Below the pieces are notes generated by a model, which was given only the letters and a program-made list of their open reading frames with translations, was not told where the DNA came from and made no database searches. 64,000 bases of DNA from the NCBI RefSeq assembly GCF_964194155.1, contig NC_135893.1:20150001-20214000 (forward strand), read 5' to 3'. Shown here piece after piece: positions 1-64,000 of this stretch (position 1 is its first letter; the number at the start of each line of letters is the position of its first letter). This DNA comes from Cetorhinus maximus (Eukaryota). Both the position numbers and the translations under genes were made by a program.

Positions 1-2700
1 TTCCATTATCAATTCCCCAGACGCACTCTCTATAGGACCAACGTTCACTTTGTTAACTCTTTTCTTATTTAAGTATCTATAGAAACTCTTACTATCCATC
101 TTTATATTACTATCTAGCTCTCTCATACTCTAATTTTTCCTTCCTGATTAATCTTTTTGTCATTCTTTCATGTTCTTCATATTCTTTCCAATCTCTGACC
201 TGCCACCTGTCCTTGCATAATTATATGTTTTTTCTTTAAGTTTGATACCGTCTTTAACTTTTTTAGTTAATCACGGATGGTGGGCCCTCTCCTTGGGATT
301 TTTCTTTCTCATTGGAATGTATATATTCAGTGTATTCTGAAATATACCTTTAAATGTCTGCCATTGAACTTCCATTGACATATCCCTTAACCTCCTTTGC
401 CAGTTCACTTTAGCTAGCTCTGCTTTTATGCCCTCATAATTGCCCTTATTTAAGTTTAAAATACTAGTCTTGAGACTCTCATTTCTCCCTCAAAATGAAT
501 GTAAATATTATGATCGCTGCTACCTAAGGGTGCCTTCGCTAGGAGGTTATCAATTACTCCTATCTCATTGCTCAATACCAGGTCTAGTATAACCTGCTCT
601 CTGGTTGGCTCCAGAACGTGCTGTTCTAAGAAACTATCCCGAAAACATTCTATGAACTCCTCATCTGCACTACCTTTGTACATCTGATTTTTCCAGTATA
701 TATGTAGATTGAAATCCCCCATGATTATTGTTGTACCTTTCTGGCAAGCTCCCATTATCTCTTCTTTTATACTCTGTTCCACTGTATAGTGACAATTGGG
801 GGGCTTGTACACCACTCCCACAAGTGACTTCTTGCTTTCATCATTCCTCATCTCAACCCAAACCGCTTCTACATCCTGGTTTCCTGAATTTAGATCATCT
901 CTCTCTAATGTGCTAATACCATCATTAATTAACAGAGCTACCCCTCCACCTTTTCCCAACTTCCTGTCCTTTCTAAGTGTCACATACATTCAATATTCAG
1001 GTGCCAATCTATGTCATCCTGTAGCTATGTCTCTGTAATGGCTATCAGGTTGTACTTATTTATATTTGTGCTATCAGTTCATCTGTTTTGTTTCTAATGC
1101 TAATGAGATACAGAGCCTTTAGTTTTGTCCTTTTATTATTTTTGTAGTTACTAGCCTTATCTGCTGATTTACTCTTATATTTGTACTCTCTGCCCCTTCC
1201 TGTAACAGTCTGTTTATAATTTCCCATATTAATACCTGTCTCTTGCCTTGTCTCTACTCTTTGGTTTACCACTTCTTCACAAATTTGATCCCTTGCCCCC
1301 ACTATTCCATTTAAAACCCTCTCTACTTCCCTAATTAGGTGGCTCATGAGGACACTAGCCCCAGCACGGTTCAGGTGTAGACCGTCCCGATGGTATAGAT
1401 CCCACTTTCCCCAATACTGGTGCCTGTGCCCCACAAACCAGAACCTACTTCTCTCACACCAGTCGTTGAGCCACGCATTCATTTCTCTCGTCTTATTTGT
1501 CCTATGTCAATTTGCATGTGGCTCAGGTAAAAATCCAGAACTTATTACCTTTGAGGCTCTGCTTCTTAATTTGGTGCCTAGCTCATCATACTGACTATGC
1601 AGAACCTCCTTCCTCATCTTGTCTATGTTGTTGGTACTTACATGGACCACGGCTCCCCGATCCTCCCCCTCCCACTGCAAGTTCCACTCCAGCCCTGAGC
1701 AGGTGTCCTGAACCCTGGCACCGGGTAGGCAACAAAGCAATCTGGACTCTTGCTCTTTGTGACAGAGAACAGTGTCAATCCCCCTCACTATACTGTCCCC
1801 TACTACCACTACATTCCTTTTTGCTCCCCCCACTTGGATAGCTTCCTGTACTATGGAGCCATGGTCAGTTTGCTCATCCACCCTGCAGCCCCCACTCTCA
1901 TCCAACAAGCTGAGAGTCTCAAACCTATATGACAATTGCAGAAGGTCACACTCCTGCACTCTGGTTCCTCTTACCTGCCTCACTCGCAGTCACACCCTTC
2001 TGTCCCTGGCCACTGATCAAATTAGAAGACCCTATCCTAAGTAGTGTGACTGCTTCCTGGTATAAAACATCCAGGTAACTTTCCCCTCCCTGATGTGTCA
2101 CAGAGTCTGCAGCTCAGCCTCCAGCTCAATAACTCTGATCCAAAGTTCCTCAAGCCGCATACACTTACTGAAGACATGTTTGCCCTGGTTCACAATGTTA
2201 TCCAGGAGCACCCACATGCTGCAGCCTCGACACATCACCTGTCCTGCCATTCTTAATTTTTTAAATAATCACTTAATTATATTAATCACTTAGTAATGTT
2301 GCTTTCTTATATATTTTATTAACTTTACCAACAAATTATGTACTATTTTAAACCTTACAGATAGAATAGAACTTACCAAGTTACCAGATACTCACCAAAC
2401 AGCTATCTCCTTTCACTGTAGTAGAACAAGAACCTATTTCTATGGGGTGAGAAAGAAGAAATGAACAGCTCCTTCTCCCAACTCCCCTCTCACCAAACTC
2501 CAAATCTCCACTCAGTTAGTTGGCTGCACTCCTTTTGCCAAGGCTGAACTAAAGAACTCTGAATTTATAGTAAACCGAACTGGGGCTACAGTAACCAGAT
2601 TCAACCAGTTAGTTAATTAACTACTCAGCTCCTACAGCTGAGCGTGAGTTTACCTTGTCGAAAAGAAAGTTGGGTAACTTTTTGAACCACAGTTAATTGG
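1..2700 (-). mobile_element. CR1 LINE, 5' half, degraded: 5'UTR, ORF1 (CxxC/leucine-zipper plus SGNH esterase) and start of ORF2 (APE endonuclease); runs off the window start
   Basis: ORF1 ATG at ~2250 (MAGQVMCRGCSMW...LEAELQTL). SGNH motif VVVVGDSIVRG...CCLPGARVQD in ORF 1507-1983 and DGLHLN in ORF 1060-1482. APE motifs RKDRKLGKGGGVALLI, MGDFN, LDLVL and LGSSDHN in ORF 456-989. Stops and frameshifts present; 5' boundary approximate. Confidence 0.9.
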
Positions 2701-3002
2701 TAAAAGGGGAGAGAGGCAAGATGGGAGAGAGGGCAGTGTTATTCTTTTATGTTGTGCTAGCAACCAGCCAACAAACATTTTGGGCTGACTGGCCTTCTAT
2801 GATTATATGCTGGTTGAATGCCACTGATACTGTGTGTTGTCCAGATTTGGTGCAGTTCCTGTAAAAAGCTGCTGAATGCTGGATATGTGACATTAAGTCT
2901 GAACCAGTGACAAATAAATTCCATCTGGAGAAAACTTCTGTTTTGTTCCCCAGCTTCCTCCCTCCGGGTTGCTTTCTGCAGATTAGGGGTGAAGTTAAAG
3001 TG

Positions 3003-3930
3003 CAAGATCAGGTGAGGGTGGAGGGGTGGGGAATGTAGTTTGGTTGTGAGATTGCAGGTCTGGGAAGAGGTGTGTTAAGGGTGTGAGGTGAGGCTGAGAG
3101 GATGGAGGTTGGGGTTGAGGCGTGGATGTGATTTTAAGGTTGGGTGAGGGATAAGGTGACAATGGAGGACAGGTTGAGGTGAGGCTATGAAGGTGGAGGT
3201 GAGAATAAGTTTGAGGGTGGGTTGTGGACAAGGTGAGGGTAGCGTTTGAGATGAGGGAAATTGGTGATTGATGTTATGGTGGAGGTGTGGATGAGGTGAA
3301 GGTGAGAGATCAAGTGAGGTGAAGGATGAGTTGGGGCTGAGGTGAGTGGATGGGGTGAAGTGGGTTGGGTTTGAGAGAAGAGATGGGGCATAAGGTAAGG
3401 GAGTGAAGCTGGAGAATGAGGTGAGGGGTGAAGGTGGGTGATAAGATAATGGTGGGATTGAGGTAAGGTGAATGGGTGAAGTGAGATGGAAGTGGGTATG
3501 AAGACGCGGATGGAAGTGGAAGTGTGGTGGAGACCTGGGTAATGAGGTAAGGGTGTAAAGGAAGGGAATGAGGTAACATTGGGGGGTGTGGGGTGAAAGT
3601 GAGTGGTAAAGGTGATGTTGGGGAATGAGGTGAGGGTGGAATTGAGGTGGGCGATGTGGGTGGAAATGAAGGTGTAGTGGAGTGGGCGGGGAATGAGATG
3701 AGGATAAGGGATAGGGTAAGGTGAGGATGTGAGTGTGAGGGACTGAGGTTAGGGTGTGAGAGTGAGCTATTGAACAAGGGTGGAGGATGAGGTGAGAGTG
3801 GAGTGCTGTAAAGGATGTGAGGTGTGAGTGATGGGAGGGAGTGAGGTGAATGTGTGAGGATGGAGGAGGTGAGGACGAGGTGTGAGTGAGAGTGGGGCTG
3901 AGGTCAGGTGCGAGGGATGATGGGATAGAT
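3003..3930. repeat. C-poor G/T/A low-complexity tract of degenerate GTGAG/GAGGT units
   Basis: About 930 bp with very few C on the + strand and recurring tgagg/gtgag/ggtga words. Confidence 0.9.
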
Positions 3931-4787: not shown

Positions 4788-7700
4788 ATGGCCACTCTCA
4801 CACGACAGGACCTCAATTTTGGACAAGGTACAGTCTTTGATATTCTCACCTTGTTAATGATATTCTGCATGGAATTGTAACAAACTGGCTATTTTATTTT
4901 ATTGTCAATTGACCCCCTTTGCTCCCTTCAGAAGCTGCTGTCTGGTTGGGGCACTGGTTGCCTGTTGTAGCTTGTCCAAGTAGTTGTTGGATAAACAGTC
5001 AGTGTGGGGGACATCATAACTGAACCTGGCCCCTTATTCACCTTATGCCATATGCACTTTCAGGTGGAGTTATTGATGGTGATTAGGAACAGGAATTTGA
5101 GTGCAGTATTTGTCTTGCAGCCCTTGTACAGGGATGCGGAGGCCTCTACCAATTGTCTTGGTTACAATGCTTTGTGCTAAGTAGAACCAGTAGCGTTCCA
5201 AATTTTAGTTTACCACCCTGTTTCCCTTCCCGATAATCACCTGACACCCAGCCATACACTGCAGGCTGTGACCCAAGGTCTTGCATCCCATTGTGTAACT
5301 GGTCTCATCTTCTCTCTGCCTTTCCAGTGGTTGCAGATGTACTGTGTGAATTTCTAGAAGTGGCTATTCACATGATCCTGTATGTCCGGGAGGTTTATCC
5401 AATCGGAATCTTTCAGAAGAGGAAGAAGTATAATGTACCTGTCCAGGTGAGACAACAGTTGAACTTCCAGCTTGTTGATAGTCTGAAGCAGTGATCTGCA
5501 TTCACAATCATTTATTCTCTGAACATTGTGTCACACTACATCTGTTGGTTACAGCATTTTTGAGTTTGTTTAGTGTGGTGCTGACATTGGGATTTCATGC
5601 TTAAAAAAATTAAGGATCACTTCATTTTTTGCTGATGATGCTTTGTTTACCCTTTCGAATGCTGTGTTTGTCTAGATGTCGTGCCATCCAGAGCTTAACC
5701 AGTACATCCAGGATACGCTACACTGCATCAAACCTCTGATTGAGAAGGTGAGGAAAATTTTTAGTTGGCTGGTTCCATCATCATGTACAACTATTTATAT
5801 GAATGTAGACTTTTGTCATAGACAAAATATGTGATTCATACTGCCTGAGATCAGTGTGTTTTGTATGTGAGCTTTGTGTATTTTTTTATCCTTAGTGATT
5901 GTCCCAATTTAAATAATTTGAGCAGCAAGGTTTTTGTAAGTTTAAAAATGAGGTTTAAAAAAAAAAGCAATGTCTCACTCACACACACCATCACTCTCAA
6001 AAATTAGATACAGACGAAGAAAAAGTACTATACAATTACGAAGTATAATTGTCTTAGTTTCTCTTTTGTGGCCGGCTTGTGGTTTCTTTGATGACTTGAT
6101 GCTTTTAGTAGTTGCAGTGAAGTTCTTGTGAGCAAAGGATTCTCACTAAGCTGTGAGGCATCTTGTGGTTGAATTTCCAGAAGGTTGGTTCTCGGGTGAA
6201 CTTGAAGTTGGAACAAGTTGGGGAAAGTCCTCCTTTCAATTTTAATGTATTGCTAGTTATCACCTTGGCTGCATAGTTGACTTGCTGGTTCAGTGGCTTT
6301 TCTGATGGACTGGGATGGAACTTTTTTCTGCAAGCAGCTTTTGCTGTTAAAAGCAGACAAAAAATATGGCTGTGCTCATCATGTGACTTGTGCAAGTTTA
6401 AAAAAAATCCTTTGTCCAAAGCCAGGTGGTGTGCTGATTACACATCCTGTGTTCTTGTTTGACACTTGAAAATTCATCCTGCCTAATTTGGATGAGAAAC
6501 TATCATAATACAATGGAGGGTCAATGGGATCCCTTTCATATTTATCTAATTCATTGAGTTTTTGTTGTCTATGGTGAAACAGAAAGATGTATTGGCTGGA
6601 ATGCTATGGTTCTATTGTTAATGGTCTATCCTTAAACAAACGGATGTGTGAATTTCCCAGCTGGCTGTGAATGTTCATGCTGAATTAGGTGTTTACTTGA
6701 GACTCAGGACTGTCTGGCTCATTGCCAAAGGTCACATGATTTGCAGTGGCCATTTTAACAGACATCTTAAAATATTGCCTGAAAGTTCATCATTTACTGG
6801 AGCATGACACTTTATTGAGTTAGTTTCTACTCCACATTATCTCCCCTTACCCTAATCGCATATTAAATATCATTCTCCCTCTGAGGGTGGGTACATACTT
6901 GTATCAAGTGAGTACCGAGGGAATGTGTACAGCAGCTGTTTGGGTTACGATTTGGTGTCAGTCTATAATGTTCACTTTTTATATCACTCCCTTAAATGTT
7001 TGTGTGGCAGAGAAGGGCTTTTTATTTCTGTTTTCGCCCACTTATTGATATATTTTGTAATGTCCTTTAGGAAGGGAAGGTATGACTAAGAATAGACTGG
7101 GAATTCTTTGCTAAATGACTTAATTCCTGAGCCCTCAAAACCTCTCCATCATCTGCTAGGCACAAGTCAAAAAACACTCACCAGTTACCCTGAGGGGTGC
7201 AGTCGCAAGAACACTTGATTTAACATCATTCAGGATAGAGGGGAGGTGGTGGCATAGTGGTATTGTCACTGAATTATTAATCCAGAGACCCAGGGTAATG
7301 TTCTGGTAATCTGGGTTCGAATCCCACCACAGCAGATGGTGAAATTTGAATTCAATAAAAAAATCTGGAATATAAAAGTTGTCGAAACCATCTGGTTCAC
7401 TAACTTAGGGAAGGAAATCTGTTGTCCTTACCTGGTCCTGCAGCAATGTGGTTGACTCTTAAATGCCCTCTGAAAACTAAGTGGCCTAGCAAGCCATTTC
7501 GTTCTCAAGGGCAATTAGGGCCTCAAGACTGGCCACCCATGAGGCGCTGTGGGCCATCAGCAGCAGCAGGATTGTATTCGAGCACAATCTGTAACCTCAT
7601 GGCCCAGCATATCCCCCATTCTACCATTACCATCAAGCCAGGGGATCAACCCTGGTTCAATGAAGAGTGCAGGAGGGAATGCCAGAAGCAGCACCAGGCA

Positions 7701-10700
7701 TACCTAAAAATGAGGCGTTAACCTGGTGAAGCTATAAAACAGGACTACTTGTATGCCAAACAGTATAAGCAGCAAGTGGTAGACAGAGCTAAGCGATCCC
7801 ACAACCAACAAAGCAGATCTAAGCTCTGCAGTCCTGCCACATCCAATCGTGAATGGTGGTGGACAATTAAACAACACACTGGAGGAGGTGGCTCCACAAA
7901 TATCCCCATCCTCGATGATGGAGGAGCCCAGCACATCAGGGCAAAAGATAAGGCTGATCTTCAGCCAGAAGTGCCGAGTGGATGATCCATCTTGGCCTCC
8001 TCCGGAGGTCCCCAGCATCACAGATGCCAGTCTTCAGCCAATTCAATTCACTCCACGTGATATCAAGAAACGGCTGAAGGCACTGGATACTGCAAAGGCT
8101 ACAGGCCCTGACAACATTCAGTCAATTGTACTGAAGACTTGTGCTCCAGAACTTGCCACACCCCTAGCCACGCTGTTCCAGTACAGCTACAACACTGGCA
8201 TCTACCCGACTATGTGGAAAATTGCCCAGTTATTCCATGTACAAAAAAGCAGGACAAATCTAACCTGCCCCATCAGTATCCTGTCCATCATCAGTAAAGT
8301 AATTGAAGGGATCATCAACAGTGCTATCAAGTGGCAATTGCTTAGCAATATCCTGCTCACTGATGCCCAGTTTGGATTCTGCCAGGGCCACTCAGCTCCT
8401 GAACTCGTTACAGCCTTGGTTCAAACATGGACAAAAGAGCTGAACTCCCGAGGTCAGGTGAGAGTGACTGCTTGACATCAGGGCAGCATTTGACCGAGTG
8501 TGGCATGAAGGAGCCCTAGCAAAACTGGCGTCAATGGGAATCGGGGAAAACTCTGCTGGTTGGATTCATACCTATCACAAAGGAAGATGATTGTGGTTGT
8601 TGGAGGTCAGTCATCTCAGCTCCAGGACATCACTGCAGGAGTTCCTCAGCACAACCATCTTCAGCTGCTTCATCAATGACCTTCCTTCCATCGTAAGGTC
8701 AGAAGTGGGGATGCTCGCTGATGATTGCACGATGTTCAGCACCATTCGTGACTGCTCAGATACTGAAGCAGTCCATGTCCAAATGCAGCAAGACCTGGAT
8801 AATATCCAGGCTTGGGCTGACAAATGGCAAGTAACATTCGTGCTACACAAGTGTCAGGCAATGACCATCTTCAACAAGAGAGAATCCAGCTATCTCCCCT
8901 TGATGTTCAATGGCATTATCATCACTGAATCCTCCACTATCAACATCCTGGGGGTTACCTTTGAACAGAAACTGAACTGGACTAGCCATATAAATACTGT
9001 GGCTACAAGAGCAGGCCAGAGGCTAGGAATCGTGTGACAAGTAACTCGCCTCCTGACTCCCCAAAGCTTGTCCACCATCTACAAGGCACAAGTCAGGAGT
9101 GTGATGGAATACTCCCCACTTGCCTGGATGAGTGCAGCTCCTACAACACTCAAGAAGCTGGACACCGTCCAGGACAAAGCAGTCCGCTTGATTGGCACTA
9201 CATCCACAAACATTCACCCCCTCCATCACTGACACAACAGTGTGTACCATCTACAAAATGCACTGCAGGAATTCACCAAGGCTCCTTCGACAGCACCTTC
9301 CAAACTCATGACCACTACCTCCTAGAAGGACAAGGGCAGCAGATAGATGGGAACACCACCACCTGGAAGTTCTCCTCCAAGTCACTCACCATCCTGACTT
9401 GGAAATATATCGCCATTCCTTCACTGTCGCTGGGTCAAATCCTGGAACTCCTTTCCTAACAGCACTGTGGGTGTACCTACACCACATGGATTGCAGCGGT
9501 TCAAGAAGGCAGCTCACCACCACCTCTCAAGGGCAACTAGGGATGGGCAATAAATGCTGGCCTAGCCATGAACGAATAAAAACGGACCCATGAACGAATG
9601 TTTAAAAAAAAAACTCACTCAATGACCCCACTACTGGATTTTGTATTCACGCCTTCCACCTGTGTTGGACTGTGGCAACTCTAAGGTTATCCCTGCAACC
9701 TGTACCACAAAGGTCTTAAGAAACACTAATGCTGTTGTGACACCATCACCTCCAAGTTCCCTTCCCGGACTTGGTCTTCTGTTGCTGGATCAAAATCCTG
9801 GAATTTCTAACCTAATGCCATTGTGTGGGAGCAACATCAGTAATGCAGATTAAGGAGGCCAGCCATCACAATCTCTGCATTTAGGAACAGTGTCCACCCA
9901 CCTCCCGAGAACAAGTAGATTCATAAAAAGGCAGTGAAATCCAGCAAAGCATTGGTTCCCTTTATTTGCTGTTGGGGCATGGGTATCAGCAGAAACTATT
10001 GCTTGAAGAGCTGCTGCAGGTTCCCGCCAATCTTTGTTCATGTCTATTTGTTCATCGGTGGATGATGAGCTGCTTGTGGACTGTGACCGGTCATCTTTTC
10101 TCATGTTTAGAATGAGGTGGATCGGATGGTGGTGGTGATCCTGGATAAAGAGCATCATCCTGTGGAGCGCTTTGTCTTTGAGATATCCCAACCTCCTCTG
10201 CTGTCTGTCAGGTGAGATATTTTCAGCCTTCACTGTTTTCTTGTATTACCTACAGCACCAAACTATTGATCAGATTCCTGAAATTATTACAATTAAACTT
10301 AACTCAAGAACAAGAATAGGGCCAATTTAATCTCTTTGTTTCAAATTTAAAAAAAATTAAAGCCGTTGTTAGGTTTTCCTTTTATCATGATTCTAAATGT
10401 TGTAACCCTTTTTCTGCATTCTGCACTGTTACTGAAGCAGGCAATCCAATGAGAGAACCTGTTAGATCAATAGGCATAATGAATCGATGCATGGCCTATC
10501 CATAACAACTTGGCTGGGTCAGAAAGTGCACCTGTGGAAAGGGTGGATTATGAATGTGTGTTACTTGTTGATGGCACTGAAGGATAGTATTCTAGTGAGC
10601 TATGACATGGAAGGCTAGTTCACTACTGAGCGGTGGCACAGTGGGGGCAAGTACACTTGCAAACTTGCCCCAGGCAAGAATCATTGGCGTTCTGCTGTGT

Positions 10701-13700: not shown

Positions 13701-16700
13701 TAAATTTAATTGTCCTTTCCACTGGATAACACCATCTGTTTTCTCCCACCTAAAGCAGAGACAGAGAAAAAGAGAGCTTTCTTTAATGCTTTCATGTCCT
13801 TGAAATGGCCTAAAGTCCTTCACAACTAACAAAAAGATGTTTTGAAATGTCACTCTTTAGTAGGCAAATGTATGGCTAATACATGTATAGCACAGTCATA
13901 CAACAAGCAAATTAATAAATAACCAGATCATTTGTTTTTACTAGTATTGTTTGAGGAGGTAATGTTGCTCAGAATTCCAGGACAACTTGAGTAGTGCCAG
14001 AGGAAATGTTACTTACATGCTCATGGGCAGGCAGACAGTTTAATGTTTCATCCAAAGCATCAAACCTTTGACCGTGCAGCACTTCTTCAATACATCACCG
14101 AAGCACTTTTAACACTAACTGTTGCTGCAGATGCTCAGCTAATTTGGCGTAGACAAGGAATTGAGCCTGGGACTTTCTAGGTCCGCAGGGCGCTGTGGAC
14201 TAGTTGCTGTGCTATTGAGGGAGCACATACCTTAATATACCACATACTACTTAACTTGACTAATCAACATTAATAGACTATCCCCTATTGGTATCATATA
14301 CCTATGTATAATCCCCATTAATCTATATTCCACTATATCATAACATACTATGCTTAATACTCATTAATATACTATCCGCTATTTCATTACATTATATTCT
14401 TCAGCCCCCATAAATCTAAAATCAGAATTTTCATATCATAAAACCATTCATTTAACCCTCAATTATCTAACTTATAAATAATGTGGGTTGGTAAGAACGT
14501 CACATCCCGCTATTATAAGAAAATTGCTCTCTTTGTGGCACTATACTCGATTAATCCCTATCAATTGATCAAAACTGGCATCTGATTAATGCTTGACATA
14601 CTTATAATCCTTGATCGCATCAAGAATGCCAGCCTGCTAGTTCCCCTTAATGGCACTTTCGTCCTTGTTCATCTCAAGATTTATTGTACGCCCTGTTTTT
14701 TTATTCGGGTACGAAGCAATTACTATGCCCCGGGAGGGCTGATCTGGAACACTGAGATAAACTTGAGCCCACCTCGACATTTACTTAAAATACACATTAC
14801 TTATCATTCATGAGTTATAATTGTCAAGTTGATCATTACTGAGGGATAGAGAGATTGACTCCATAGTCGACAAGTTTCGATTTTTTTGATTAATGAAGCT
14901 ATGGTTTAAAAAATACACTTTCTTAACCCCCACTTAAACACTTTGTTTAAGTGTTGCTTTGTAAATTTCTAATGCAGAAGCTGGAATAAATTCCTCCTAT
15001 GTATTAGAATTGTGCTGTTTTATTTCTAGGCTGTACCTTTACTGTATTGGTTCATACTCGAGATGTTGCCACTCGAAATATGGAGAAAATTCAGGTGATA
15101 AAGGTGAGTAGACCATCTAGGTAGACGCAGTGGGCTAAAGTCTGTGATATGCAATCTGTTGATAATTTTGCAGGTTAATATCATATATGTCTCTGGTTAT
15201 TGGATCAGAGAAAAGTTCTGTAGCTTCACCACATCTACTTGAGAATGGTAAAACAAAAATTAAAAATACCTGGAAAAACTCAGCAGGTCTGGCAGCATCT
15301 GCGGAGAGGAACACAGTTAATGTTTCGAGTCCGTATGACTCTTCAACAGAAAAATCTGTTGAAGAGTCATACGGACTTGAAACATTAACTGTGTTCCTCT
15401 CTGCAGATGCTGCCAGACCTGCTGAGTTTTTCCAGGTATTTTTAGTTTTGTTTTGGATTTCCAGCATCCGCAGTTTTTTGCTCTTTACTTGAGAATGGTG
15501 GTGAGCATTCAGCTAACTTTGAAGGCGAAAGCTCCATAAATACCCAGTTATCTCTTTTGACTTTCCGTGTTGTAGCACCAACATCACTAACCATAAGTTT
15601 AACTGAATTGGCTGTATCATCACCATGTCCGGGGCAAATGGCTCACCTCCTGACCCCTCAAAGCTTCTCCATCACCCAGAAGCTTCAACTAAGGATCGTG
15701 ATGGAATTTCCTCCATTTGCTTGGATGGGGTAGATGCAACAGCCCTTAAACACCATCCACTGAATTCAATATCCACCCTCTATACCACCAGCATAAGCTT
15801 GCTTCAACACCTCCAGTCCAACGATCTACCACTAGAAGACAAAAAGCAGCAACATAATGTGGAACAGTGTGACATGCAAGTTTCCCTCAAGTCACACGCT
15901 TTCCTGACTTGGACATATGTCGCCATTCCCATTTTGTCACCAATGGATCAATATCCCCGAGGTCACTATCCAACACCATTCCAGGAGCACTATCACCATT
16001 ATGGACTGCAGCCACCAAGGAAACGGTCCACTATCGCCTTGGGGCAACTAGTAATAAACAATAAATTTCCCAAACCTGAGAACAAATACACAATAAACAA
16101 TTAATGTTGTGTTTCAGATTCACCCTTTGTTTGCTTATTCCTTGTGTAGGACTTCCCATGGATCCATGCTGATGAACAGGAAGTGAACATGCGAGAGCCA
16201 CGGCTCATCCCACTGAAAACTATGACATCAGATATCTTAAAGGTAACAACTTTAATTCTAGCAAGGGGTGTCTTGTGTTCTATTTGTGGTTCATGTGTAG
16301 TAGCTTATGAGCTTTGATTGTAAACTTATCAGATGTTTATGAAAAGATTTCTTGACCAGAAGAGAGTGCATTAGGTGGTGGCTTTGGGTGGCAAGTGAGG
16401 CAATTTGTTGAAAATACCATATATATAGGATCATCTACCCTTGTTTGTTTTCAGTGAACTTTCTGAAGATTGGATGCCAAATGCATAGGGTTGTAAAATT
16501 AACCCAGTTTATTGTAACTGCTGCTTCCTGGATTATATCTGAAGAAAATGATAACAGTGACTCTGATAAACTGATATATTTAGTAGCGCTGCAGTCCACT
16601 GTATGCACAGTTCTTACATTGGGATTTGCATTTGATACATGTTTTTTTTAACTCTTTTATAGATGCAGTTGTATGTTGAGGAGAGAGCTCAGAAAACATC

Positions 16701-19390: not shown

Positions 19391-20179
19391 ATCTCACTAT
19401 TAGCCTTTATACCACTTGCAACTTTTTTTGTTACAATTTTGTAGCTCTTAAAGTTTTCTTGTGTCTTATTGTTGTTATCTATAATTCTCTCAGGTTGCTC
19501 GATGACAGTTTTTCTTGTATCTTACCTTATATATTGTCTGTGGTTGCTTGACTGTATATGTGGAATTTTTGTTCTTCAGTGATATATTCATCTTCAGCTA
19601 TTTCACCAGTGACTTTCCCTGTACTGCATACTTACATTGACTCTAGCATTCCCTGGATTGTAAAATCTCATCCATGCTTTCAAATCCCTCTATCGTCTTG
19701 CCCTTCCCTACCTCCTCCAGCCCAAAAACCCTTCCAGATCTCTGTGTTCTTCTCCAACTCTGACCTCTTGTGTATCCCTGATTTTAAACGCTCCACCATT
19801 AGCAGCTGTGCTATCTTACCTAGCCCTCAGCTCTGGAATCTTCCTAAACTTCTCAACCAGCCTCTCTACCTCCTTGTCCTTTAAAGTGTTTCTTAAAACT
19901 ACATCCTTGATATTTCCTTAAGTGCCTTGGTGTCAAGTTTTGTTTGATAATGATTCCTAGGGACGTTTTACTGGTTTAAAAATGTTACACAAATGCAAAT
20001 TGCATTACTCTCGATCATGACAGAAGTTGGGCTGCTAATTGATAATTGCAGTCTTCAGTTCAATTCACGGTTGTACACTCAATAATCAATTCTAAGCTTG
20101 GATTGATAGCGGCAAGTAACATTCTGCTAAACAAAGTGACAGGCAATGACCATATGTGACAGCTACCTGACATTGTCAT

Positions 20180-20308: not shown

Positions 20309-25215
<4,907 letters not shown>

Positions 25216-25724: not shown

Positions 25725-26108
25725 AGCAAGTGTTGCCCATTCCCAATTACCCTTGAAGGTGAACTACTTTTTTGAATCTCTGCAGTCCATGTGGGTAGGT
25801 ACACCCACAGTCCTTGTTTTCCTATAGCAGTTTGATACAACTGAGTGACTTGCTGTGCCATTTCAAAGGGCAGTTAAGAGTCATATGTAGGTCAGACCAG
25901 GTAAGGATAGCAAATTTCCTCTCCTGAAGGACATTAATGAACCAGATAAGTTTTTCCCCCAAAATCCAGTAGTTTCATGATTATTGAGACTAGCTTTTTA
26001 TTCCAAATTAATTAATCTTAAATTCCCACAGCTGCCATAATATTATTTGAACTCATGTCTATGCCTCTGGATTACTAGTCCATAACATTACCACTATGCT
26101 ACAGTCCC
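25725..26108 (-). mobile_element. tRNA-headed SINE (internal-deletion derivative of the Zenon-like LINE)
   Basis: Minus strand reads tRNA-like head (tagcatagtgg...gagttcaaat), the ggttcattaatgtccttcagg body, caaactgcta, then LINE tail ctgtgggtgtacctacccacatggactgcag...caagggtaattggg. Confidence 0.8.
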
Positions 26109-30484: not shown

Positions 30485-58253
<27,769 letters not shown>

Positions 58254-60084: not shown

Positions 60085-63000
60085 GGGAGGTGGTATAGTG
60101 GTATTGCCACTGGGGACCCCGGTTTGTATCCCACCACAACAGATTGTGGAATTTGAATTCAATAAAAATCTGGAATTAAAGTCTAAGATGACCATGAAAC
60201 CAGATGGACATGAAACCAGATGGACAGTGAACCATCTGGTTCACTAATGTCCTTTAGGGAAGGAAATCTGTCATGTGACTACACGTGACTCCAGATCTGC
60301 AGCAATGTGGTTGACTCTTAAATGCCCTCTGAAATGGCGTAGCAAGCCACGGCAAACCGCTAAAAGGTCAATAAAAAGGAATGAAACAGGATGGACCACC
60401 TGACATTGACCTTGGTACTGGAAATTACAATGGCAAACTGAGCCCTGTCGACCCTGCAAAGTACTCCTTACTAACATGTGGGGGCTTGTGCCAAAATTGA
60501 GAGAGCTGTCTCACAGATGATTCAAGCAACAGCCTCACATAGTCATACACATAGTTGTACTCACGGAATCATACCTTACAGATCACGCCCCAGACAATAC
60601 CTGGACAGTGTCCTGGGCAGACCTACCAGAGGTGGTGGCACAATGGTACACAGTCGGGAGGGTGTTGCCCTGGGAGTCCTCAACATCAACTCCAGACCAC
60701 ATGAAGTCTCACGGCATCAGATCAAACATGGGCTAGGAAACCTGCTGATTACGACGTACCACCACCCACCTCAGCTGATGAATCAGTACTCCTCCATGTT
60801 GAACGCCATTTGAAGCAAGCACTGAGGGTGGCTAGGGCACAGAATGTACTCTGGGTAGAGGACTTCAATGTCCATCACCAAGAGTGGCTCAGTAGCATGA
60901 CCACAGACTGAACTGGTCGAGTCCTAAGGACATAGTTGCTGAACTGGGTCTGCGTCAGGTGGTGAGGGAACAAGAGGGAAAAACATACTTAACCTAATTT
61001 TCACCAACCTGCCTGCTGCAGATGTATCTGTCCATTACAGTATCAGTAGGAGTGACCACTGTACAGTCTCATCTTCACATTGAGGATACCCTCCATTGTG
61101 TATTGTGACACTACCACTGTGCCAAACGGGATAGATTTTGAACAGATCTAGCAACTCGACTGGGCATCCATGAGGCATTGTGGGCTATCTGAAGCAGCAG
61201 AATTGTACTCAACCACAACTGTTACTTCATGGCCTGGCATATCCCCCACTCAACCATTACCACTATGCCAGTGAATCAACCCTGGTTCAATGAAAGAGTG
61301 CAGGAGGGTATGCCAGGCACAGCACCAAGCATACCTAAAAATGAGGTGTCAACCTGGTGAAGTTACAACACAGGACTACTTGCGTGCCAAACAGCATAAG
61401 CAGCGAGTGATAGACAGAGCTAAGTGATTCCACAACCAATGGATCAGATCTAAGCTCTGCAGTCCTGCCACATCCAGTTGTGAATGGTGGTGGGCATTTA
61501 AACAACTCACTGGAGGAGAAGGCTCCACAAATATCCCCATCCTCAATGATGGAGGAGCCCAGCACGTCAGTGCAAACAGAAATGCAGAAGCATTCGCAAC
61601 AATCTTCAGCCAGAAGTGCTCAGTGGATGATCCATCTTTGCCTCCTCCTAAGGTCCCCAGCATCACAAATGCCAGTCTTCAGCCAATTCATGTCAATCCA
61701 CGTGATTTTTAAAAAATTTCATTCACGGGATTTGGGCTTTGCTGGCTGGGCCAGCATTTATTGCCCATACCTAGTTGCCCTTGAGAAGGTGGTGGTGAGC
61801 TGCCTTCTTGAACCACTGCAGTCCATGTGGTGTAGGTACACCCCAGTGCTGTTAGGAAGGGAGTTCCTAACGTGATATCAAGAAACAGCTGAAGGCACAG
61901 AATACTGCAAAGACCATGGGCCCTAACAATATTCCAGCAATAGTACTGAAGTCTTGTGCTCCAGAACTTGCTGCATCCCTAGCCAAGCTGTTCTGGTACA
62001 GCTACATCACTGGCATCTACCCAGCTATGTGGAAAATGGTCCAGGTATGTCCTGTACACAAAAAGCAGGACAAATCCAACTCAGCCAATCGCCACTCCCA
62101 TCAGTCTACTCTCGATCATCAGTAATGTGATGGAAGGGGTCATCAACAGTGCCATCAAGTAGCGCTTGCTTAACAATAACCTGCTCACTGATGCTCAGTT
62201 TGGATTCCACCAGGGCCACTCAACTCCTGATCTCATTACAGCCTTGGTTCAAACATGGACAAAAGAGCTGAACTCCAGAGGTGAGGTGAAAGTGACTGCC
62301 CTTGACATCAAGGCATCATTTGACCATGTGTGGCAACAAGGAGCCCTAGCAATACTAGAGTCAATGGGAATCAATGGTAAAACACTCTGTTGGTTGGAAT
62401 CATAGCTAGCACAAAGGAAGGTGGTTGTAATTTTTGGAGGTCAATCATCTGAGCTCCAGGGCATCACCGCGGGAGTTCCTCAGAATAGCGTCCTCGGCCC
62501 AACCATCTTCAGCTGCTTCATCAATGACCTTCCTTCCATCATAAGGTCAGAAGTGGGGATGTTTGCTGATGATTGCAAAATGTTCAGCACCATTCATGAC
62601 TTCTCAGATACTGAAGCAGTCCATGTCCAAATGCAGCAAGACCTGGACAATACCCAGGCTTGGGCTGACAAGTGGCAAGTAGCATTCACACCACATAAGT
62701 GCCAGGCAATGACCATATCCAACAAGAGAAAATCTAACCATCACCCATAGCCATTCAATGGCATTACCATCGTTGAATCCCTCACTATCAACATCCTGGG
62801 GGTTCTCATTGACTAGAAACTGAGCTGAACTAGCCGTATAAATACTGTGGCTACAAGAGCAGGTCACAGGATAGGAATCCTGTGGAGAGTAACTCACCTC
62901 CTGACTCCCCAAACCCTGTCCACCAACTACAAGGCACAAGTCAGGAGTGTGATGGAATACTCGCCAGTTTCCTGGATGAGTGCAGCTCCAACAACACTCA

Positions 63001-63296
63001 AGAAGCTTGACACCATCCAGGACAAAGCAGCCCCCTTGATTGGCACCCCTCCCACAAACATTCACTCCCTCCACCACCGACGAACAGTGGCAGCAGTGTG
63101 TACCATTTACAAGATTCAATGCTGAAACTCACCAAGGCTCCTTGGGCAGCACCTTCCAAACCCACGACCACTACCATCTAGAAGGACAAGGGCAGCAGAC
63201 ACATGGGAACACCACAACCTGGAAGTTCCCCTCCAAGCCACTCACCATCCTGACTTGGAAATATATCACCGTTCCTTCACTGTCGCTGGGTCAAAA
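60085..63296 (+). mobile_element. Near full-length CR1-Zenon-like LINE with tRNA-derived head and a single APE-RT ORF (decayed); antisense tail fragment nested at 61707-61869
   Basis: Head TGGTATAGTGG (60091) and GGTTTGTATCC (60121). APE motifs LLTN.WGL, VLTESYL, RGGGT, EDFNVHH, RSDH. RT motifs QFGFHQGHS, LDIKASFDHVW, GVPQNSVLGP, FADD. Collinear with 7525-9440. Confidence 0.92.
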
Positions 63297-63479
63297 TTTT
63301 ATTTTATTTTAACCTTATTAAGCATCTTGAGGGCTGGGGTGAGATTACAGATGAAATGTGACAGTTGTAGGTTGGAGGCCAGGCAGTCAGACGTATTGGC
63401 AGCACCTAACTGTATAATGTCTCTTTATTGCTGGGGGCTGCTAACTGTAGCTTTCCAAACGGCAAGTGAGTGGGATGCA

Positions 63480-64000
63480 CTTGATTAAGTGAATGAGTAA
63501 AACTTTGGCAGATGAAGTTTAAAATGCAAAGTGTTCGGTCATCTACTTTGAAACCTTGAAGGAACAGAGCTATTGAGGGGTCCAATACAGAAATTACTAA
63601 AAGCTAATAGGTACAAAATATAATTTAAAAGGCTAATGAAATGTTGATTGTCATCTTGAGGGCTGGAAGATTATCTGTTGTACACAGCTCTGCTTAAACC
63701 TTGTTTAGAGAACTGTGTTCAATTCTGGACACTGTACCTCAAAATATATATTGGAATCGGAGGGGATGTAGCAAATTCACCAGAATGATACTGGAGGTGA
63801 AAGGGTTAAATTATGAGGACGGGTTGCAGAAATTCGGCTTGTATTCTCATGGGTATGGAAGATTGATATAATTGAGGTATTTAAAATGATTAAAGGAGTG
63901 ATAGGGTTGATAGAAGGTAATTATTTCCTATAATAGGAAATGTTAGAGCTAGACTATTCAGGGCGTACAAAAAGTAGTGGAAATCTGGAACTTTCTCCCC
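63480..64000 (+). mobile_element. Old CR1 RT 3' fragment
   Basis: tggcagatgaagtttaa, tgtgttcaattctgg, ttatgaggacgggttg, tggaaatctggaactttctcccc. Confidence 0.75.

What the first reader, a model, noticed from the sequence alone, without database searches (positions are those of the whole stretch)
60085..63296. Candidate RNA-polymerase-III-driven LINE: tRNA head directly upstream of an ORF1-less APE-RT ORF
Seen: the element starts with a tRNA-like A box and B box, continues through a ~250-nt body shared with the window's SINEs, and reaches the first endonuclease motif (KVLLTN.WGL, ~60458) within ~380 nt of its 5' end, leaving no room for ORF1. SINE-length copies at 55479-56000, 25725-26108 and 52830-53160 share both this 5' end and the LINE 3' tail but join them at different points, as expected for internal deletions of one parent. 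Established: LINEs normally use Pol II promoters, while tRNA heads with A/B boxes define Pol III SINEs. Inference: the head is an integral part of an autonomous retroelement that produces its own SINEs. I cannot tell whether repeat libraries already record this.
Basis: partly seen in the sequence, partly recalled or inferred. Interest (0 to 1): 0.85.

Follow-up and report, generated by a model that had tools for sequence, protein, structure and literature searches.

The report
Shark LINE with tRNA promoter head
This is a broken copy of a very abundant shark jumping gene whose full-length form begins with a tRNA-like promoter head and avoids the T-runs that stop RNA polymerase III, so it was likely transcribed by the polymerase that normally makes only short non-coding RNAs.

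Summary
Observation confirmed. The element is a decayed copy of the elasmobranch Zenon LINE (single APE-RT frame, no ORF1, poly-A tail; PMC13343379); the family makes up about 7.7% of 400 kb sampled. The tRNA-like head is its normal 5' end. It is present in 14 of 29 copies found by the endonuclease alone (the rest stop earlier; none shows another shared 5' end) and in all 7 published shark and ray Zenon consensuses. It is absent from the 3 hagfish and coelacanth ones. The sense strand has no run of four T in 3,287 alignment columns (a co-resident CR1: 14 in 2,744), and TTT runs are 4 against 12.7-20.9 expected, lower than in any of 65 relatives. The frame has no AUG before the endonuclease. 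Best reading: a Zenon captured a SINE's Pol III 5' module and was transcribed by Pol III (0.62); no transcript data show this. TSDs were not found. The short copies are a few fixed-breakpoint families from an older subfamily. The sequence is in print; the head is not discussed in the passages I searched. The scan found this before in two other genomes.

The parts
60085..60141 (+). tRNA-like head, decayed; A-box-like 60091-60101, B-box-like 60121-60131
   Evidence: better-kept copies scored as tRNA
60142..60352 (+). Body shared with the SINE-length copies (Deu-domain/SacSINE1 label is recalled, not tested)
60353..60457 (+). LINE-specific extension; in the family it is open in the main frame (basic N-terminal stretch) and holds an out-of-frame ATG
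60458..61200 (+). Apurinic-type endonuclease region, broken in this copy (end approximate)
   Evidence: Pfam PF14529 on copy L139
61705..61867 (-). Later antisense insertion of the family's own 3' tail
62060..62780 (+). Reverse transcriptase region, broken in this copy (limits approximate)
   Evidence: Pfam RVT_1 on copies L132, L145
62781..63297 (+). C-terminal coding region; copy ends about 160 nt short of the family's poly-A tail
55479..56011 (+). SINE-length copy, main join type (body end to reference 3163), with an unrelated insert near 55620-55765
25725..26108 (-). SINE-length copy that keeps part of the LINE-specific extension and joins at reference ~3095
52830..53160 (-). Decayed SINE-length copy, very short tail (join ~3210)
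7240..9590 (+). Head, body and start of the SINE tail directly followed by a 5'-truncated LINE copy (reference 1133-3204)

Best explanation
The element is a dead copy of the elasmobranch Zenon LINE, whose 3.2-3.3 kb unit begins with a tRNA-like A/B-box head and was likely transcribed from that head by RNA polymerase III. Shown: the head is the family's only 5' end found; a single 975-codon APE-RT frame follows; the sense strand lacks T4 runs and is poor in TTT; no in-frame AUG lies before the endonuclease. Inferred: an ancestral ORF1-less Zenon acquired the 5' half of a tRNA SINE before sharks and rays split, most likely by template switching between RNAs that share the 3' tail. Source copies with T-runs would give cut-off RNAs, so T-runs were purged. 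The uncapped RNA would be translated by a cap- and AUG-independent route, which is the weakest step; no such signal was identified. The protein would then reverse-transcribe its own RNA at the target and copy the internal promoter along. Rare internal deletions keep promoter and tail and spread as SINE families.
For: Head linkage. Seven of 7 elasmobranch Zenon consensuses (5 species, one a ray) open with the head and 0 of 3 hagfish/coelacanth ones do (first 400 letters read by eye). T-runs by commonest letter per column in 39 copies: T4+ 0; T3+ 6 against A 47, G 41, C 51 in 3,287 columns. CR1 control of like age, 29 copies: T4+ 14 and T3+ 38 in 2,744 columns; natural copies carry 0.38 against 5.4 T4 per kb. 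With the protein held fixed: TTT runs 4 against 12.7 and 20.9 under two nulls (both p=0.0002); T4 0 against 4.1 (p=0.010); A, C and G runs as expected. Among 65 relatives the lowest TTT observed/expected is 0.73 and 0.67; here it is 0.31 and 0.19. First in-frame ATG at codon 291, endonuclease motif at codon 46; 29 of 30 relatives have an in-frame Met before the endonuclease. B box within one mismatch in 17 of 21 heads.
Against: No RNA evidence: only assembled contigs were available, and they cannot show start, strand or cap. T4 absence alone is not significant under the stricter null (0 against 2.06, p=0.086). 1 of 65 relatives (L224, 5' end missing) also has no T4. The element is T-poorer than CR1 (20% against 26%), which widens the raw contrast. 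The A box is within one mismatch in only 10 of 21 heads, and Rfam gave a tRNA hit for only 1 of 14 loci. Many relatives have long stretches before the endonuclease, so some of their Mets are chance. No IRES or ribozyme family matched, and the consensus fold of the 5' region has almost no covariation (-0.35 kcal/mol). Efficient translation of a 3-kb Pol III RNA has no natural precedent that I know (recall). No intact copy was seen: longest open frame 549 codons among 150 scored hits.
Confidence: 0.62

Rival explanations
1. Split labour: Pol III makes the RNA that is copied, but the protein comes from capped Pol II or read-through RNAs of the same or other copies.
For: It explains the T-run purge without translation of an uncapped RNA. 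The tail carries AATAAA just before the A-run in many copies.
Against: Templates copied only in trans should lose their frame, yet the column-wise frame is open for 975 codons. The lack of an AUG before the endonuclease is still unexplained.
Confidence: 0.17
2. Pol II LINE whose 5' UTR happens to be a captured SINE. The boxes are passengers or serve as a Pol II or insulator element, and the T-poverty has another cause such as RNA stability or mutation bias.
For: LINEs are held to be Pol II units (PMC5786205). The head starts with a G-run and a YY1-like ATGGCG as in L1 (motif recalled). T4 absence is not significant under the stricter null.
Against: TTT depletion is specific to T runs, strand-specific, and absent in CR1 of the same genome and in 65 relatives. 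The YY1-like word is not kept in the dogfish and catshark consensuses while the box-like words are (by eye).
Confidence: 0.16
3. Chance SINE insertion next to a LINE, or a LINE that inserts at a fixed site inside SINE copies.
For: TSDs enclosing head and frame could not be shown (2 of 43 copies with a repeat of 7 or more; null 3.7%). One SINE-plus-truncated-LINE neighbour exists in the window (7240-9590).
Against: The same seamless junction occurs in dozens of loci and five species. Of 15 apparently 5'-truncated copies followed upstream, 14 gave no same-strand head match within about 5 kb and one was a full copy split by CR1; in one of the 14 (L345, the locus of L036) a short head stub directly abuts the deleted frame by eye. 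The 3' ends run into unrelated flanks.
Confidence: 0.02

Closest known systems
Elasmobranch Zenon LINEs (CarCar_, RhiTyp_, ScyCan_, HypSab_Zenon-1; SquAca_Zenon-1/2/3; PMC13343379)
   Same: Same family: 2.9-3.3 kb, no ORF1, APE+RT, poly-A tail. The first 400 letters of the published consensuses match the copies here by eye, head included.
   Different: Nothing in sequence. The paper's main text has no occurrence of 'tRNA', 'polymerase III' or 'promoter' and says none of these elements was in a repeat repository.
RTE-1_DAn and relatives (mentioned in PMC5786205)
   Same: A LINE that holds a tRNA-like sequence and hits many tRNA SINEs (one sentence).
   Different: RTE clade, another host. The passage gives neither position nor promoter role; I could not see the sequence.
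SacSINE1 / Deu-SINEs of sharks, chimaera and coelacanth (PMC5499810)
   Same: tRNA head, conserved body and LINE-derived tail in sharks; the match of this head and body to SacSINE1 is recalled.
   Different: Non-coding and under 500 nt. The paper names L2-2_CM as the tail partner, whereas the tails here come from the end of the Zenon frame.
Bipartite non-autonomous LINEs and SINEs of RTE, Vingi, Ingi, R2 (PMC5786205)
   Same: Short elements made of the 5' and 3' parts of a LINE.
   Different: There a tRNA head is added after the deletion and the parent is Pol II. Here the coding parent already bears the head, so one deletion gives a complete SINE. Zenon is not among the clades listed.

Membership tests
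Zenon LINE (CR1 group) | No ORF1 | tested here: met
   Endonuclease motif about 430 columns from the 5' end; one long frame only
Zenon LINE (CR1 group) | APE endonuclease and RT in one frame | tested here: met
   Pfam on natural copies; 975 open codon columns
Zenon LINE (CR1 group) | Poly-A tail | tested here: met
   108 of 119 tails end in an A-run, 29 of them with T's before it
Zenon LINE (CR1 group) | Sequence match to named Zenon elements | tested here: met
   First 400 letters of published consensuses compared by eye only
Zenon LINE (CR1 group) | RT placed inside the Zenon clade | tested here: inconclusive
   The tree had no named Zenon reference; copies group weakly with P0001/P0002 (0.63) inside a 0.906 clade that holds a butterfly protein
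tRNA-derived SINE (SINE2) | tRNA-derived head with A and B boxes | tested here: met
tRNA-derived SINE (SINE2) | Short and non-coding | tested here: not met
   3.2 kb with a 975-codon frame; met by the short derivatives
tRNA-derived SINE (SINE2) | Transcribed by Pol III | not testable with these tools
   Only indirect: T-run purge
Deu-SINE / SacSINE1 | Deu domain in the body | tested here: inconclusive
   No reference sequence could be obtained; label recalled
Bipartite non-autonomous LINE (short copies) | 5' and 3' parts of one LINE joined by internal deletion | tested here: met
   23 joins mapped; 5 clearly keep LINE-specific sequence past the body end
Target-specific LINE inserting into tRNA/SINE sequence | 5'-truncated copies also sit behind the target and are followed by its remainder | tested here: not met

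The most novel reading that the evidence does not exclude
An autonomous, protein-coding retrotransposon run entirely on RNA polymerase III: a LINE that took over a SINE's promoter before sharks and rays split, purged every Pol III terminator from 3.2 kb of coding sequence, dropped its AUG, and translates a 975-residue enzyme from an uncapped RNA. It would be a SINE-LINE hybrid that expanded to several percent of the genome and spawns SINE families by single deletions.
Probability: 0.55. Interest if true: 0.87.

Novelty: new variant of a known kind. Interest (0 to 1): 0.7.

Why it matters
The working split is that LINEs are coding Pol II units and SINEs non-coding Pol III units (stated in PMC5786205). 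A family that fills about 7.7% of sampled shark DNA and carries both a Pol III head and a terminator-free coding strand would break that split. It would give a natural case of a long protein made from a Pol III RNA, offer a testable role for the conserved SINE body (translation or RNP signal), and show a direct LINE-to-SINE route. Shark repeat annotation would also be affected, since the 5' ends of these LINEs can be counted as SINEs.

Tried and rejected
TSD search: 2 of 43 copies had a shared word of 7 or more between flanks; mismatched pairs gave 3.7%; uninformative for full-length and truncated copies alike. T-runs in the tail as a built-in terminator: 29 of 119 tails have T4+ before the A-run against 3-5% of random A-runs, but T4A4 outnumbers pure A8 in random DNA (148 against 54), so decay of A-tracts explains it as well; not used. 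Read-through of the in-frame UAG after a short ATG frame at the body end: one subfamily has a second in-frame stop and two published consensuses are out of phase by eye; rejected as the general start. A -1 frameshift from the out-of-frame ATG: no canonical slippery site seen by eye. Ribozyme or IRES: no Rfam match; weak consensus fold. Heads on distant relatives: none in 46 loci by ARAGORN and one stray B-like word in 57; many contigs are 5'-short and the relatives are distant. Public runs: four coded organisms hold the stretch and one contig bridges body and extension, but contigs cannot show transcription; not used as expression evidence. A hidden second 5' end: 7 flank pairs among 44 copies were alike; those followed up were CR1. 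Literature: 10 searches listed no paper describing a Pol III-driven LINE or the Zenon head. Repbase, Dfam, subscription journals and the original Deu-SINE paper could not be read; supplements of PMC5499810 and one file of PMC4824008 were not readable and may bear on the SacSINE1 label.

Full report
The copy. The window lies in a 4.0-Gb genome. At 60085 an element starts with a decayed tRNA-like head (A-box-like word at 60091, mutated B-box-like word at 60121) and a ~210-nt body, and reaches the first endonuclease motif at about 60458. The frame is broken by stops and shifts, carries a 163-nt antisense piece of the family's own tail at 61705-61867, and ends ~160 nt short of the family's 3' end.

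Is the head part of the element? A search with the junction gave 40 scored hits of 6,090 candidates, all running from body into endonuclease; this is biased by design. A search with an internal endonuclease stretch, blind to the 5' end, gave 40 hits, of which 30 were fetched. Of the 29 other copies, 14 run back to within 58 nt of the head's start and 15 stop at reference positions 223-775. Of 20 copies that I picked from 150 RT hits for long open frames, 6 reach the head directly and a seventh does so across a CR1 insertion. In 40 evenly spaced 10-kb stretches the family covers 7.7%; 5 of 5 copies covering the endonuclease start carry the body (4 reach the head), and 7 copies are SINE-length. 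Flanks upstream of 44 copies share no common sequence apart from 7 pairs, those followed up being CR1. TSDs were not found above chance in 43 copies, so unity rests on the repeated junction and common ends, not on TSDs.

What family? Natural frames carry APE and RT domains. The nearest database proteins are 37-46% identical, mostly 920-1,050 aa on 3.2-4.3 kb contigs. PMC13343379 (passages, parts 2-3 of 8, supplement searches) reports ORF1-less, poly-A-tailed Zenon elements in five elasmobranchs, absent from repeat repositories. Its supplement shows the first 400 letters of each consensus. All 7 elasmobranch entries open with this head and body; the 2 hagfish and 1 coelacanth entries do not and hold T4 runs there (by eye). 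The main text has no 'tRNA', 'polymerase III' or 'promoter'. The whale shark preprint names CR1-Zenon once and never tRNA (passages). So the sequence is in print and the head is unremarked in what I could read. The scan itself reported the same thing in two other genomes; I reached the Zenon match before seeing those notes, and they are not independent support.

Is the head tRNA-like? One head passes Rfam's tRNA cut-off, the only tRNA hit in 14 loci. ARAGORN of 31 loci, the two LINE heads as Thr(AGT), and the head at 7243 in the window. The B box is within one mismatch in 17 of 21 heads and the A box in 10 of 21. An anticodon-arm-like hairpin appears in the consensus fold.

A test of Pol III use. 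Vertebrate Pol III stops at four or more T on the sense strand (recalled), so a Pol III source copy must lack them. I aligned 39 of 44 copies (5 dropped for large deletions or insertions), 3-11% from the column majority. In 3,287 columns there is no T4 run and 6 T3 runs, against 47, 41 and 51 for A, G and C; none of the six has another T in the 2 letters before or 3 after. A CR1 family from the same genome, treated alike (29 of 30 copies, one near-duplicate dropped, 5-10% diverged), has 14 T4+ and 38 T3+ runs in 2,744 columns. Six of 6 long natural frames of the element are below a synonymous null for TTT (p 0.001-0.016) and 0 of 6 CR1 frames are; the six share ancestry and are not independent. 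Over the 975 codon columns, TTT runs are 4 against 12.7 (own codons permuted) and 20.9 (base-weighted draw), p=0.0002 each. T4 runs are 0 against 2.06 (p=0.086) and 4.13 (p=0.010). A, C and G runs are as expected. TT is the most depleted pair after CG. Among 65 of 80 metagenome relatives with long frames, the lowest TTT ratios are 0.73 and 0.67 against 0.31 and 0.19 here; one relative also has no T4. None of the relatives examined shows a tRNA head. The window copy itself has two T4 runs inside the element and a third that is the edge of the later insertion.

Translation. The frame is open from column 302 to 3226. The endonuclease motif is at codon 46 and the first ATG at codon 291, so an endonuclease-bearing protein cannot start at an in-frame AUG. 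In 29 of 30 relatives (9 more not alignable at the start) a Met precedes the endonuclease, partly by chance given longer leaders. This fits an uncapped RNA read by an unusual route, but I found no such signal. This is the open step.

The short copies. Of 83 body ends, 55 continue into the LINE, 23 jump to the tail and 5 were unclassified. Joins cluster: 14 near reference 3163, 4 near 3093, 2 near 3134, and 3 singles (the sample is enriched by the search). Five keep LINE-specific sequence past the body end, which points to deletion from a headed LINE. The tails begin inside the last codons of the frame, so they come from this LINE lineage. Typed SINE heads are of an older type in 11 of 12 cases and typed LINE heads of the newer type in 33 of 36. 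Older-type LINE copies exist (L283, L316, L320). So the SINEs are a few amplified families from an older subfamily, not fresh deletions of this copy's parent.

Direction. PMC5499810 (parts 1-3 of 6) finds a tRNA head plus Deu body shared by shark, chimaera and coelacanth SINEs, while the coelacanth Zenon has no head. If this head and body are SacSINE1's (recalled, not tested), the SINE module is older and the LINE captured it. [quoted passage not shown] Also seen: PMC3747384, PMC5753468 and PMC11481361 (passages; the last links Deu SINEs to CR1-Zenon tails in bivalves), PMC7245038 (part 1 of 4), PMC4824008 and PMC5804259 (supplement searches only, no reference sequence).

Verdict. An integral tRNA-type head on a known LINE family is shown. 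Pol III transcription of the source copies is likely (0.62, plus 0.17 for a split-labour form) on indirect but controlled evidence; no transcript was seen. New variant of a known kind; interest 0.7.

Noticed in passing
window 7240-9590 +: A head, body and about 25 nt of SINE tail run straight into a 5'-truncated LINE copy. It could be a template switch from LINE RNA to SINE RNA, the kind of event that may have made the headed LINE.
   Followed up: partly
L331, L334, L338, L339 (and L333 by eye): Four or five of 14 5'-truncated copies have same-strand CR1 sequence ending within about 40 nt of their 5' break; chance, template switching or site preference not resolved.
   Followed up: partly
L132, L133: SINE-length copies of the family inserted inside full-length LINE copies.
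   Followed up: no
L224 (metagenome contig): A distant relative with no T4 run in 912 codons (5.5 expected); its 5' end is missing, so a head could not be checked.
   Followed up: partly
body of the family, e.g. window 55838-55850: The body holds CTTACCTGG, like the 5' end of U1 snRNA (recalled), which reads as a 5' splice site on the other strand.
   Followed up: no
head, variable-arm region: By eye the long hairpin after the anticodon arm differs between the published species but keeps pairing, hinting at selection on RNA shape.
   Followed up: no
random stretches L261-L300: T4A4 words outnumber A4T4 three to one and pure A8 runs (148, 52, 54): A-tracts in this genome seem to decay to T-then-A.
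   Followed up: partly
window 15489-15929, 20096-20155, 22795-22935, 7125-7215: Further old fragments of the same LINE family.
   Followed up: no
window 63470-64000 and 55620-55765: A CR1-like RT fragment follows the element (by eye); another short repeat interrupts the SINE copy at 55479 and recurs in L008 and L315.
   Followed up: no
run X19: A run labelled coral metatranscriptome holds pieces across the whole element; possibly shark DNA or a mixed sample; not examined.
   Followed up: no
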